A DNA stretch of 64,000 nucleotides from Candidatus Aldehydirespirator sp. Lineage in GTDB: Bacteria; Actinomycetota; Acidimicrobiia; Acidimicrobiales; Aldehydirespiratoraceae. Location: positions 1,222,669 through 1,286,668 of the forward strand of contig OZ244822.1 in assembly GCA_965220345.1 (NCBI GenBank). Direction: 5' to 3'. The position numbers and the translations under genes are program-made. Positions 61,227 through 61,691 of this stretch are shown piece after piece. The notes beneath the pieces were generated by a model. The model saw only the letters and a list, made by a program, of their open reading frames with translations, searched no databases and was not told where the DNA came from. How positions within the stretch are numbered: the first letter of the stretch is position 1; each line of letters begins with the position of its first letter.

Positions 61227-61691
61227 TTGTTGTGCGATTCCTGCATTGGTTGCCGTGCGAAACCAGCATTGACTGGCGTGCGATACCAACATCCGATGCC
61301 GTGCAAAACCTGCATCGAATGCTGTGCTAAAACGACATTGATTGCTGTGCAAAAACTGCATTGACTGTTGTGCGATCACAGCATTGAGTGTTGTGCTAAA
61401 ACTGCATTGATTGTTGTGCGATACCAACATCAGGTGCTGTGCAAAACCGGCATTGATTGTTGTGCGATACCAACATCAGGTGCTGTGCAAAAACTGCATT
61501 GACTGTTGTGCTACAACTGCATTGGCTGGCGTGCGAAACCTGCATCGACTGTTGTGCGATACCAACATCAGGTGCTGTGCTAAAACCGCATTGACTGGCG
61601 TGCGAAAACTGCATTGACTGTTGTGCGATAACAGCAGCCAGCTTCGTGCGGTAACTGCATTCGATCTTGTGCAAAAATTGCATAAGTATAA
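61227..61691. repeat. Array of 20 directly abutting 23-bp repeats (approximate consensus GYTGTGCRAWAACYGCATTGAYT)
   Basis: GTGC anchors lie at 61232 + 23n for n = 0..19 (through 61669) with no indel. There are no spacers. Confidence 0.95.

What the first reader, a model, noticed from the sequence alone, without database searches (positions are those of the whole stretch)
61227..61691. Perfectly phased array of 20 x 23-bp direct repeats between a PLD-SNF2 gene and an AAA/DUF4143 ATPase gene
GTGC recurs at 61232, 61255, 61278, 61301, 61324, 61347, 61370, 61393, 61416, 61439, 61462, 61485, 61508, 61531, 61554, 61577, 61600, 61623, 61646 and 61669. That is 20 units spaced exactly 23 bp apart without a single indel. 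Two unit classes are interleaved. One is GTGCGATACCAACATCAGGT-like (61278, 61416, 61462, 61554). The other is GTGC[AGT]AAAAC[CT]GCATTGA[CT]T-like, and most of its copies carry a -35-like TTGACT/TTGATT hexamer. The array fills about 465 of the 525 bp between the divergent start codons (61188 on the minus strand, 61714 on the plus strand). Units abut with no spacers, so this is not CRISPR. The period is not a multiple of 3, so it is not a simple coding repeat. I know of no described element with this layout next to these gene families. Possible roles, all inferred: an iteron-like protein-loading array, a copy-number-variable promoter spacer for two defence-type genes, or a transcribed repeat RNA analogous to type III toxin-antitoxin antitoxin arrays.
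Basis: seen in the sequence. Interest (0 to 1): 0.78.

Follow-up and report, generated by a model that had tools for sequence, protein, structure and literature searches.

The report
Tandem self-operator array of a defence nuclease
The 20 x 23-bp repeat array is real. It is an unusually expanded copy of a previously undescribed, widely conserved set of head-to-tail binding sites at the promoter of a very common but uncharacterised candidate anti-phage ATPase-nuclease (DUF4143 / PDC-S01), and sequence co-variation indicates that this protein reads the repeats itself.

Summary
**Observation: confirmed.** Window 61232-61691 holds 20 units of exactly 23 bp with no indel. The motif occurs nowhere else in the 64 kb.

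**The array belongs to the DUF4143 (PADLOC PDC-S01) gene at 61714, not to the PLD-SNF2 gene.**
- Orthologous loci keep the array with 6-12 units. Copy number differs between contigs that encode the identical protein.
- 80 metagenomic homologues (47-63% identity) lack PLD-SNF2 and DUF433, yet 74 of 83 distinct upstream regions carry at least 2 units of one motif family (G-y-G-s-r-AAA-n-c-GG-t-A). Spacing is exactly 23 bp in 150 of 162 neighbouring pairs.
- The last unit supplies the TAnnnT -10 box of a leaderless mRNA.
- A gut-bacterial subfamily at 26% identity also has 23-bp arrays. Alphaproteobacterial plasmid copies have 22-bp arrays.

**Repeat bases co-vary with protein residues.**
- Position 4 = C goes with R/K333, in a loop next to the PD-(D/E)XK catalytic residues.
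- Position 13 = T goes with N239, and G/C with D239. Residue 239 caps the wHTH recognition helix.
- Phylogenetically independent contrasts and two out-of-sample genes support both rules.

**Best reading (0.62):** an iteron-like self-operator and loading array for the ATPase-nuclease, expanded here from about 3 to 20 units. RNA, CRISPR, transposon-end and minisatellite readings are not supported. No such element was found in the literature searched.

The parts
61232..61691 (+). Array of 20 head-to-tail 23-bp units. Each unit carries an asymmetric site G1-T-G3-C4-r-A6-w-A8-m-C10-n-G12-C13-A14 that reads towards the DUF4143 gene. Ten units are strong (family PWM 13 bits or more) and seven are weaker (4-9 bits): the five units beginning GTGCGATNCC (GTGCGATACC at 61278, 61416, 61462, 61554; GTGCGATTCC at 61232), plus 61370 (GTGCGATCAC, 4.0 bits) and 61508 (GTGCTACAAC, 6.9 bits).
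   Evidence: In one search, 19 of 20 units score above the 99.9th percentile of the window for the family PWM.
61692..61713 (+). Degenerate 21st unit holding the likely core promoter of the DUF4143 gene. The -10 box TATTAT is at 61702-61707, six nt before the ATG, which implies a leaderless mRNA. The weak -35-like TTGCAT (61678-61683) lies inside unit 20.
   Evidence: Sequence reading. The same layout is seen in L001, L004 and L007, and there is a family-wide TAnnnT in the last unit. The strict sigma-70 scan did not call it.
61714..62943 (+). AAA_14 / DUF4143 gene, 409 aa. It is the PADLOC phage-defence candidate PDC-S01: an AAA+/STAND-like ATPase, a helical domain, a winged HTH and a PD-(D/E)XK nuclease.
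   Evidence: Pfam; PDC-S01, E 5e-102; AF2 model, pLDDT 88; Foldseek: 2qen, Avs5, Apaf-1, Orc1/Cdc6, Can2.
62386..62553 (+). Predicted winged helix-turn-helix, residues 225-280. D239 (62428-62430) is the N-cap of the recognition helix and co-varies with repeat position 13.
62710..62715 (+). Codons for R333 and N334, in the loop just before catalytic E338/D340. These residues co-vary with repeat positions 4 and 3.
62725..62781 (+). PD-(D/E)XK catalytic core: E338, D340, E354 and K356. All are conserved in the family.
   Evidence: PMC3424549 assigns DUF4143 to the PD-(D/E)XK superfamily.
57730..61188 (-). Divergent neighbour: PLD (HKD) + SNF2 helicase, 1152 aa. It neighbours the array only in this lineage. 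Its promoter must lie in or next to the left end of the array.
   Evidence: PADLOC C3a139 'HKD+Snf2'; synteny in orthologous loci; absent from 80 other loci.
61189..61231 (-). Leader and ribosome-binding site of the PLD-SNF2 gene. AAGGAGGAC is the reverse complement of 61193-61201.
63039..63701 (+). DUF433 protein, 220 aa. In orthologous loci it is followed by a DUF5615 PIN-like gene and a type IIG R-M gene. It is not part of the repeat system.

Best explanation
**What it is.** The array is a lineage-specific expansion, from the usual ~3 units to 20, of a conserved cis-element that belongs to the DUF4143/PDC-S01 gene. Each 23-bp unit carries one asymmetric site of about 14-16 bp. That site is recognised by the gene's own product, an AAA+ ATPase-wHTH-PD-(D/E)XK nuclease.

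**How one protomer reads one unit.**
- The loop before the nuclease active site (R333/N334) reads positions 3-4.
- The N-cap of the wHTH recognition helix (D239) reads position 13, about one helical turn away.

**How protomers are arranged.** The fixed head-to-tail register of 23 bp (about 2.2 turns) fits cooperative, AAA+-type side-by-side loading.

**What occupancy does.** The promoter-proximal unit overlaps the -10 box of a leaderless mRNA. Occupancy should therefore repress the gene, giving autoregulation of a potentially toxic nuclease. In this lineage the array fills the whole divergent intergenic region, so it probably also affects the PLD-SNF2 promoter.

**How the array grew.** Expansion happened by duplication of 2-4-unit blocks.

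**Shown versus inferred.**
- Shown: conservation, exact phasing, position relative to the promoter, copy-number variation, and protein-DNA co-variation.
- Inferred: physical binding, cooperativity, and the sign of regulation.
For: **(1) The array follows the DUF4143 gene.**
- Orthologous loci L001-L012 keep it at the same place with 6-12 units.
- None of 80 metagenomic homologues has PLD-SNF2 or DUF433 nearby.
- No other neighbour gene recurs.
- Even so, 74 of 83 distinct upstream regions have at least 2 motif hits, with a mode of 3.
- 150 of 162 neighbouring hits are exactly 23 bp apart and 8 more are 46 bp apart.
- As a control, the same PWM inside the coding region gives no pair at 23 bp.

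**(2) The motif is concentrated upstream.** There are 229 hits in the upstream 700 nt against 124 in the remaining ~1.2 Mb, counting both strands.

**(3) The last unit is the promoter.** It has T13 in 80% and T18 in 76% of loci, against 46% and 10% in inner units. This gives TAnnnT, with the start codon 24-30 nt from the unit start.

**(4) Repeat bases co-vary with protein residues.**
- Position 4 = C goes with R/K333 in 25 of 28 loci. Position 4 = G or T goes with E/Q/A/M in 39 of 39 (Fisher 2e-15).
- Of 10 phylogenetically independent contrasts, 9 are concordant and 0 opposite.
- Position 3 = C goes with H334 in 8 of 8 loci, with two independent origins.
- Position 13 = T goes with N239, and G/C with D239. 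This gives 8 net contrasts of 10, the best of 409 alignment columns; the next best gives 5.
- After APC correction these are the top 3 of 3336 pairs: z = 9.0, 6.9 and 5.2, with the next at 4.9.
- Two genes not used for training obey both rules.
- The window protein (R333, D239) matches its own units (C4, C13).

**(5) The fold fits DNA binding.** The AF2 model shows a wHTH and an intact PD-(D/E)XK core. Fold neighbours include Orc1/Cdc6 bound to origin DNA and STAND NTPases.

**(6) The register is conserved far beyond this clade.** It is 23 bp in a gut Firmicutes/Spirochaete subfamily at 26% identity, with 2.7-8.5 units. It is 22 bp in alphaproteobacterial plasmid copies.

**(7) Copy number varies with an identical protein.** L007 has 12 units and L009 has 9. 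L219 has 4.9 and L220 has 2.7.

**(8) Expansion has happened independently.** L180 has 18 units.
Against: - There is no binding, footprint or transcript data. Everything here is comparative.
- Co-variation was found by screening many pairs. The residue classes (R/K against E/Q/A) were defined after the fact, and shared ancestry is only partly controlled.
- There are exceptions: L154 and L186 have C4 with Q333, and L194 has T13 with D239.
- A winged helix in AAA+/STAND proteins is often structural rather than DNA-binding.
- The strict sigma-70 scan finds no promoter in 61000-61900.
- In the window the -10 box lies one unit downstream of the last good unit, unlike the typical family layout.
- Homologues in Thermus, Moraxella and Nitrosomonas plasmids show no tandem repeat; Moraxella has a palindrome.
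- An autoregulator needs only a few sites, so 20 units are not explained by repression alone.
- Seven of the 20 units are weak matches to the family motif (4-9 bits).
Confidence: 0.62

Rival explanations
1. The DUF4143 protein does recognise the units, but the array is mainly a substrate or platform for the nuclease rather than an operator. It could be a docking or arming site that stores inactive protein. It could also be a built-in chromosomal cleavage ('suicide') or recombination site used when the ATPase is activated.
For: - The strongest co-varying residues (333/334) sit in the loop directly before catalytic E338/D340, as in restriction-enzyme recognition loops.
- The catalytic motif is conserved.
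- Arrays of 18-20 units exceed what repression needs.
- Breaks inside a tandem array would explain the frequent block gains and losses.
Against: - In most loci only about 3 units exist, and the last one coincides with the -10 box. That placement is typical of an operator.
- There is no evidence of cleavage.
- A self-cleaving site would be costly.
Confidence: 0.12
2. The units are bound by another trans-acting factor, either a host transcription factor or, in this lineage, the DUF433 protein. The DUF4143 protein does not touch them.
For: - No binding data exist.
- DUF433 is an HTH-like domain encoded 95 bp downstream.
- Winged helices of AAA+ proteins are not always DNA-binding.
Against: - DUF433 and every other neighbour are absent or non-recurrent in 80 loci that keep the repeats.
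- The motif differs between paralogues on one contig (L208).
- The motif co-varies with DUF4143 residues.
- A global factor would keep one motif within a taxon.
Confidence: 0.12
3. The units are duplicated promoter modules, each a -10-like element with upstream sequence, that are read by RNA polymerase. The array is a stack of tandem promoters that raises or tunes transcription.
For: - The 23-bp period equals the distance from the start of a -35 hexamer to the start of a -10 hexamer with a 17-bp spacer.
- Inner units keep T13 and A14.
- In the pig-gut clade (L226) every unit contains TATAAT or TATAAC.
Against: - Inner units of the actinobacterial-type clade lack T18: 10% against 76% in the last unit.
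- The best-conserved positions (G1, G3, A6, A8, G11, G12) are not promoter elements.
- Co-variation with the protein is unexplained by this model.
- The consensus scan finds no promoter-like site in the window array.
Confidence: 0.06
4. The array is transcribed and acts as a repeat RNA, for example a type III antitoxin-like inhibitor of the nuclease.
For: Tandem direct repeats lie immediately upstream of a nuclease gene, which resembles the toxI-toxN layout (my knowledge of ToxIN).
Against: - The family promoter lies in the last unit, so the other units are upstream of it.
- There is no terminator between the array and the gene beyond the chance level.
- There is no Rfam hit.
- RNA folding is weak or absent.
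- Most loci have only 2-4 units.
- The co-varying residues are in a wHTH and a DNA-nuclease fold.
Confidence: 0.03
5. The array is a neutral minisatellite or an assembly artefact with no function.
For: - Copy number varies.
- Some contigs come from short-read metagenome assemblies.
Against: - The same positions are conserved while the others diverge, across proteins only 26-94% identical, in independent assemblies including Mb-scale contigs.
- Units are diverged enough (about 70-76% matches) to assemble unambiguously.
Confidence: 0.02

Closest known systems
Plasmid iterons bound by Rep initiators (R6K, RK2, P1, pSC101; from my own knowledge)
   Same: - Head-to-tail direct repeats with a fixed spacing of about 22-23 bp (about two helical turns).
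- They lie next to the gene whose product binds them.
- They serve as a loading platform and also autoregulate that gene.
- Repeat sequence and protein co-evolve.
   Different: - The adjacent protein is an AAA_14-wHTH-PD-(D/E)XK ATPase-nuclease, not a Rep initiator.
- There is no AT-rich unwinding element and no DnaA box.
- The context is chromosomal (GlnRS-type tRNA synthetase nearby).
- The element is found beside thousands of stand-alone defence-candidate genes.
Orc1/Cdc6-ORB and DnaA-DnaA-box arrays (AAA+ initiators binding repeated sites beside their own gene)
   Same: - An AAA+ module plus a winged helix or HTH.
- Several phased sites next to the gene.
- Foldseek finds Orc1/Cdc6 on origin DNA (2qby) among the structural neighbours.
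   Different: - TM-scores are low (about 0.22).
- This protein carries a nuclease domain that also appears to read the DNA.
- The sites are strictly head-to-tail and overlap a promoter rather than flanking an unwinding element.
ParR-parC (plasmid R1) and omega-repressor heptad arrays: centromere/operator repeat arrays (my knowledge)
   Same: - Arrays of 7-10 or more direct repeats around a promoter.
- Cooperative binding gives both a higher-order complex and autorepression.
   Different: - The repeat length differs (11 or 7 bp against 23 bp).
- Those binders are small RHH dimers.
- No ParA- or ParM-type partner is present here.
C-protein / operator control of restriction-modification systems (my knowledge)
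   Same: Transcriptional self-control of a potentially toxic nuclease gene through operator sites at its own promoter.
   Different: - There the regulator is a separate small HTH protein with two palindromic sites.
- Here the effector itself seems to be the regulator, and the sites are asymmetric tandem repeats.
Type III toxin-antitoxin ToxIN (toxI repeats; my knowledge)
   Same: A tandem direct-repeat array lies immediately upstream of a nuclease gene in a defence context.
   Different: - ToxI consists of 36-nt repeats that are transcribed and processed as RNA, with a terminator before toxN.
- Here the promoter is at the gene-proximal end of the array, there is no terminator, and the evidence points to double-stranded DNA readout.

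Membership tests
PADLOC PDC-S01 (AAA_14 + DUF4143 phage-defence candidate): the gene | Full-length match to the PDC-S01 profile, with AAA_14 and DUF4143 Pfam domains. | tested here: met
   - PDLC04790, E 5.2e-102, residues 1-409.
- PF13173 (1.9e-15) and PF13635 (2.6e-27).
PADLOC PDC-S01: the gene | Experimentally shown anti-phage activity. | not testable with these tools
   [quoted passage not shown] The function is a candidate only.
Plasmid iteron / Rep origin | Tandem direct repeats of 17-23 bp at about two-turn spacing. | tested here: met
   20 units, 23 bp, no indel.
Plasmid iteron / Rep origin | The adjacent gene encodes a Rep-type replication initiator. | tested here: not met
   an AAA_14/DUF4143 ATPase-nuclease with no Rep family hit.
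Plasmid iteron / Rep origin | An AT-rich unwinding element and DnaA boxes beside the repeats, on a replicon. | tested here: not met
   - no DnaA box with 1 mismatch or fewer. The only AT-rich 40-mer is the promoter at 61667-61706.
- the window carries a class I Glu/Gln tRNA synthetase gene, which is chromosome-like.
CRISPR array | Repeats separated by unique spacers of similar length. | tested here: not met
   units abut with no spacers.
Type III toxin-antitoxin (ToxIN-like) | Repeats transcribed from an upstream promoter, with a terminator between the repeats and the toxin gene. | tested here: not met
   - the -10 box is in the last unit across the family.
- there is one terminator-like site, inside the array, which is the chance level.
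Type III toxin-antitoxin (ToxIN-like) | The toxin is a ToxN/AbiQ-fold endoribonuclease. | tested here: not met
   an AAA+ ATPase with a PD-(D/E)XK domain.
REP / dispersed intergenic repeat or generic minisatellite | The same unit occurs at many unrelated intergenic sites. | tested here: not met
   - 20 of 21 hits in the window lie in the array.
- the family motif is about 37-fold denser upstream of DUF4143 genes than in the rest of about 1.2 Mb.
- The whole source genome could not be scanned.
Transposon terminal repeats (Tn7/Mu-like multiple transposase sites) | Inverted copies of the repeat at a second end of an element. | tested here: not met
   no inverted clusters in loci with up to 6 kb of flank. 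The only second cluster (L208) sits upstream of a second DUF4143 paralogue.
Self-operator (autoregulatory binding-site array read by the adjacent gene's product) | The sites overlap the gene's core promoter. | tested here: met
   - TAnnnT in the last unit, with the start codon 24-30 nt from the unit start.
- In the window, -10 TATTAT lies at 61702-61707. It is not called by the strict scan.
Self-operator (autoregulatory binding-site array read by the adjacent gene's product) | Specificity of the sites tracks specificity residues of the protein. | tested here: met
   with out-of-sample cases.
Self-operator (autoregulatory binding-site array read by the adjacent gene's product) | Physical binding, and repression of transcription. 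| not testable with these tools
   This needs EMSA or footprinting and reporter assays.

The most novel reading that the evidence does not exclude
PDC-S01 proteins, one of the most frequent defence calls in prokaryotic genomes, would be sequence-programmable ATP-dependent nucleases. Their two-point recognition code (wHTH residue 239 and nuclease-loop residues 333/334) can be read off the tandem array at their own promoter. The array would be more than an operator. It would be the resting dock that holds the oligomeric nuclease inactive, or a built-in chromosomal self-cleavage site. Expansion or contraction of the array (3 to 20 units) would then set the threshold at which the nuclease is released during infection.
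Probability: 0.2. Interest if true: 0.85.

Novelty: new variant of a known kind. Interest (0 to 1): 0.72.

Why it matters
PDC-S01 (AAA_14 + DUF4143) is reported as the fourth most common defence call across prokaryotes and the most frequent single locus in rumen genomes. Its function and mechanism remain untested (PMC12988326, PMC13356809).

A conserved, phased cis-element at its promoter, together with residues that co-vary with it, provides three things:
- The first concrete and cheap experimental handle on the family: a defined DNA ligand and predicted specificity-swap mutations.
- A likely explanation of how a potentially toxic nuclease is kept in check.
- A sequence signature (tandem units of 22-23 bp ending at the -10 box) that can improve annotation of these genes and their true start codons.

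The 20-unit array in this window and the 18-unit array in L180 show that the element can expand like a minisatellite. This makes copy-number effects on defence-gene expression testable.

Tried and rejected
**Searches that failed or found nothing**
- My one genome-contig scan used a pattern that was off by one: GTGC-N8-RCA instead of GTGC-N7-RCA. It therefore did not test the distribution of the true motif. Most hits were unrelated 22- or 24-bp coding repeats. It did bring in L118 by luck.
- Exact-protein look-up of the window protein found nothing on record.
- A PDB sequence search with the family profile gave no hit.
- Rfam and tRNA scans found nothing.
- Viral-contig scans with the Lachnospiraceae and Agrobacterium proteins found no relatives.
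- Literature searches for DUF4143, COG1373, PDC-S01 and 23-bp repeats found no description of the element.

**Ideas dropped**
- I first read the core as a TGC-N7-GCA palindrome for a dimeric HTH. The family motif is asymmetric, so I dropped this.
- The transposon-end idea fails because there are no inverted copies.
- High-scoring motif hits in L157 lie inside a repeated coding domain and are chance matches.
- A weak internal match at +813 to +854 of the gene comes largely from the conserved PKRY codons.
- The residue 333/334 code does not transfer to the 26%-identity gut subfamily, because its loop has a different length.
- I could not place the PLD-SNF2 promoter from sequence alone.
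Full report
**1. Observation**

The sequence at 61232-61691 divides into 20 units of exactly 23 bp with no indel.
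- GTGC (positions 1-4), C13 and A14 are invariant.
- A6, A8, C10, T15, T20 and G21 are near-invariant. The remaining positions vary.
- Tandem Repeats Finder reports period 23 and stronger super-periods of 46 and 92 bp. This points to growth by duplication of 2-4-unit blocks.
- Units 8, 10 and 14 are identical to each other, and so are units 5 and 11.
- A degenerate core pattern hits 21 times in the window, 20 of them in the array, against 1.26 expected from shuffles.
- There is no Rfam family and no tRNA.

**2. Orthologous loci**

The DUF4143 protein has relatives at 94%, 83% and 79% identity in Acidimicrobiia-type metagenome-assembled genomes.
- Their contigs keep the order PLD-SNF2 <- intergenic -> DUF4143, DUF433, DUF5615. 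A gene that PADLOC calls a type IIG R-M enzyme follows.
- The intergenic region holds the same kind of array in every case, always with period 23: about 11 units (L001-3), about 6 degenerate units (L004-6), and 12 units (L007, 8, 10-12).
- L009 has 9 units and encodes the identical DUF4143 protein. It lacks exactly 69 bp, which is three units.
- So the array is conserved, and its copy number varies between close relatives.

**3. Which gene does the array belong to?**

A metagenome scan with a DUF4143 alignment returned 80 loci at 47-63% identity.
- None has a PLD-SNF2 or DUF433 relative nearby.
- Crude gene calls show no recurrent neighbour.
- Nearly all nevertheless have short tandem 23-bp repeats ending just before the start codon.

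A PWM refined on 83 distinct upstream regions gives the motif G1-y-G3-s-r-A6-A7-A8-n-c-G11-G12-t-A14.
- 74 of 83 regions have at least 2 hits, with a mode of 3.
- 150 of 162 neighbouring hits are exactly 23 bp apart and 8 more are 46 bp apart.
- The same PWM applied inside the coding region gives no pair at 23 bp.
- Hits are about 37 times denser in the upstream 700 nt than in the remaining ~1.2 Mb.
- The window's units (GTGCGAAAACTGCAT) are a variant of this motif. 19 of 20 score above the 99.9th percentile of the window.

The array therefore belongs to the DUF4143 gene. The window's 20 units are an expansion of an element that usually has about 3. An independent expansion to 18 units occurs in L180, beside an unrelated upstream gene.

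**4. Relation to the promoter**

- In the last unit T13 rises to 80% and T18 to 76%, against 46% and 10% in inner units. This creates TAnnnT.
- The start codon lies 24-30 nt from the start of that unit. That fits a leaderless mRNA, which is common in Actinobacteria (the last point is my own knowledge).
- In the window the likely -10 box (TATTAT, 61702-61707) lies six nt before the ATG, in a degenerate 21st unit. A weak -35-like TTGCAT lies in unit 20.
- The strict consensus scan does not call this promoter, so the assignment rests on the family pattern.

**5. The protein**

- PADLOC assigns it to PDC-S01 (E 5e-102). This is an untested single-gene phage-defence candidate, reported as the fourth most common defence call in prokaryotes (PMC12988326). 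It is also the most frequent single locus in rumen genomes (PMC13356809).
- DUF4143 was classified as a PD-(D/E)XK fold (PMC3424549). E338, D340, E354 and K356 are conserved.
- An AlphaFold2 model (pLDDT 88) shows an AAA+ core and a helical domain.
- It also shows a winged HTH (helices 229-236 and 240-252, wing 256-278) and the nuclease domain.
- Foldseek neighbours are the PAB2304 ATPase, STAND NTPases (Avs5, Apaf-1), Orc1/Cdc6 on origin DNA and the Can2 nuclease.
- No PDB sequence relative exists.

**6. Who reads the repeat?**

I took the per-locus consensus of the units and the aligned proteins from 73 loci.

- **Overall signal.** After average-product correction, three of 3336 motif-position/residue pairs stand out. 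They are position 4 with residue 333 (z 9.0), position 13 with residue 239 (z 6.9), and position 3 with residue 334 (z 5.2). The next pair is at 4.9.
- **Position 4.** C pairs with R/K333 in 25 of 28 loci. G or T pairs with E/Q/A/M in 39 of 39.
- **Position 3.** C pairs with H334 in 8 of 8 loci, in two separate clades.
- **Position 13.** T pairs with N239, and G or C with D239.
- **Tree control.** I built a tree without these regions.
  - For position 4, 9 of 10 phylogenetically independent contrasts are concordant and none is opposite.
  - For position 13 scored as T vs N239, 7 of 10 are concordant and none opposite.
  - Scored by D239, position 13 gives 8 net contrasts, the best of 409 columns; the next best gives 5.
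- **Location of the residues.** Residue 239 caps the wHTH recognition helix. Residues 333/334 lie in the loop just before the catalytic E338/D340.
- **Out-of-sample genes.** Two genes not used in the screen obey both rules. They are the M. riyadhense plasmid gene (G4/E333, C13/D239) and the second paralogue on L208 (G4/E333, T13/N239).
- **The window protein.** R333 and D239 fit its own C4 and C13.

This is the main evidence that the DUF4143 protein itself recognises the units. The two protein regions contact sites about nine bp apart.

**7. Generality**

- A large gut Firmicutes/Spirochaete subfamily, only 26% identical to the window protein, also has 23-bp arrays directly upstream, with core (G)yCGAAAAAy.
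- That subfamily has 8.5 units in L118, 4.9 in L219 and 2.7 in L220 (the same protein as L219). It has 3.2 units in L222 and 3.9 in L226.
- Alphaproteobacterial plasmid copies (about 30% identity) have 3-4 units of 22 bp.
- A Mycobacterium plasmid copy has 4 x 23 bp.
- Thermus, Moraxella and Nitrosomonas copies show no tandem repeat. The feature is widespread but not universal.

**8. Rivals**

- **RNA.** Folding is weak (z -2.1 and +0.6), and the promoter lies at the gene-proximal end of the array.
- **Transposon ends.** There are no inverted copies.
- **Replication origin.** There is no Rep gene, DnaA box or AT-rich element, and the context is chromosomal.
- **Tandem promoters.** Inner units lack T18.
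- **Another binder.** No other gene recurs.
- **Still open.** The array may be only an operator, or also a docking or cleavage platform for the nuclease. The co-varying loop next to the active site, and arrays far longer than repression needs, keep the second idea alive.

**9. Verdict**

- The finding is real. It leads to a conserved element that the searchable literature does not describe.
- In kind it resembles iterons and operator arrays. It is new in being attached to, and apparently read by, an abundant ATPase-nuclease defence candidate.
- All mechanistic steps beyond sequence conservation and co-variation are inferred and need binding and expression experiments.

Noticed in passing
window 29380-41877 (-): A 4165-aa ORF is built largely of tandem repeats of about 106 aa (318-bp period; TRF rows at 30089-37016). 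A 700-aa slice has no Pfam match above the curated cut-offs. It may be a giant surface protein with an undescribed repeat domain.
   Followed up: partly
window 53466-54260: A 378-bp tandem duplication (2.1 copies, 85% matches) lies just upstream of the LigD primase-polymerase gene (54433-55464).
   Followed up: no
window 63039-63701; L001 5152-6226: The DUF433 protein is unusually long (220 aa, with the domain only at 168-213). In orthologous loci a DUF5615/PIN-like gene overlaps its end, which looks like a toxin-antitoxin pair. In the window that partner would run off the end.
   Followed up: partly
L005 2478-5920; L008 2295-5662; L001 6237-9508 vs L008 8421-11723: In some relatives the PLD-SNF2 gene is split into two ORFs. 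The type IIG R-M gene is split in some (474 + 610 aa) and intact in others (about 1100 aa). Parts of this defence island appear to be decaying in some strains.
   Followed up: no
L106 about 311-517 (+ coordinates): A Clostridia MAG has a 23-bp tandem array (GTGCAAAATCACGCATAAAGCAA alternating with GCGCAAAAAGGCGCGTATAATAT) that resembles the window's unit. It lies downstream of rpoC, near the contig start, so its other neighbour is not visible.
   Followed up: partly
L217 about 2440-2497: The Moraxella bovis plasmid DUF4143 homologue has a long near-perfect palindrome (taatcctagtttaatttaag...cttaaattaaactaggatta) upstream instead of tandem repeats. This may be a different operator architecture in that clade.
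   Followed up: no
about +813 to +854 nt inside the DUF4143 genes of 31 of 83 loci: There is a weak match to the repeat PWM (5-13 bits) inside the coding sequence. In 30 of the 31 loci it coincides with the conserved (P/S/G/A)KR(Y/F/H) codons (usually PKRY) of the wHTH wing, so it is most simply a coding coincidence.
   Followed up: partly
L024 and L025: Unrelated 23-bp tandem arrays turned up in Bacteroidota MAGs: the palindromic GTGCGGGGTCCCGCAC units in L024 (Tannerella) and GTGCCAGCTAGAGCAGAGCAGAG units in L025 (4323-4575). They came from the mis-specified scan. No DUF4143 relative was detected nearby by tblastn.
   Followed up: no
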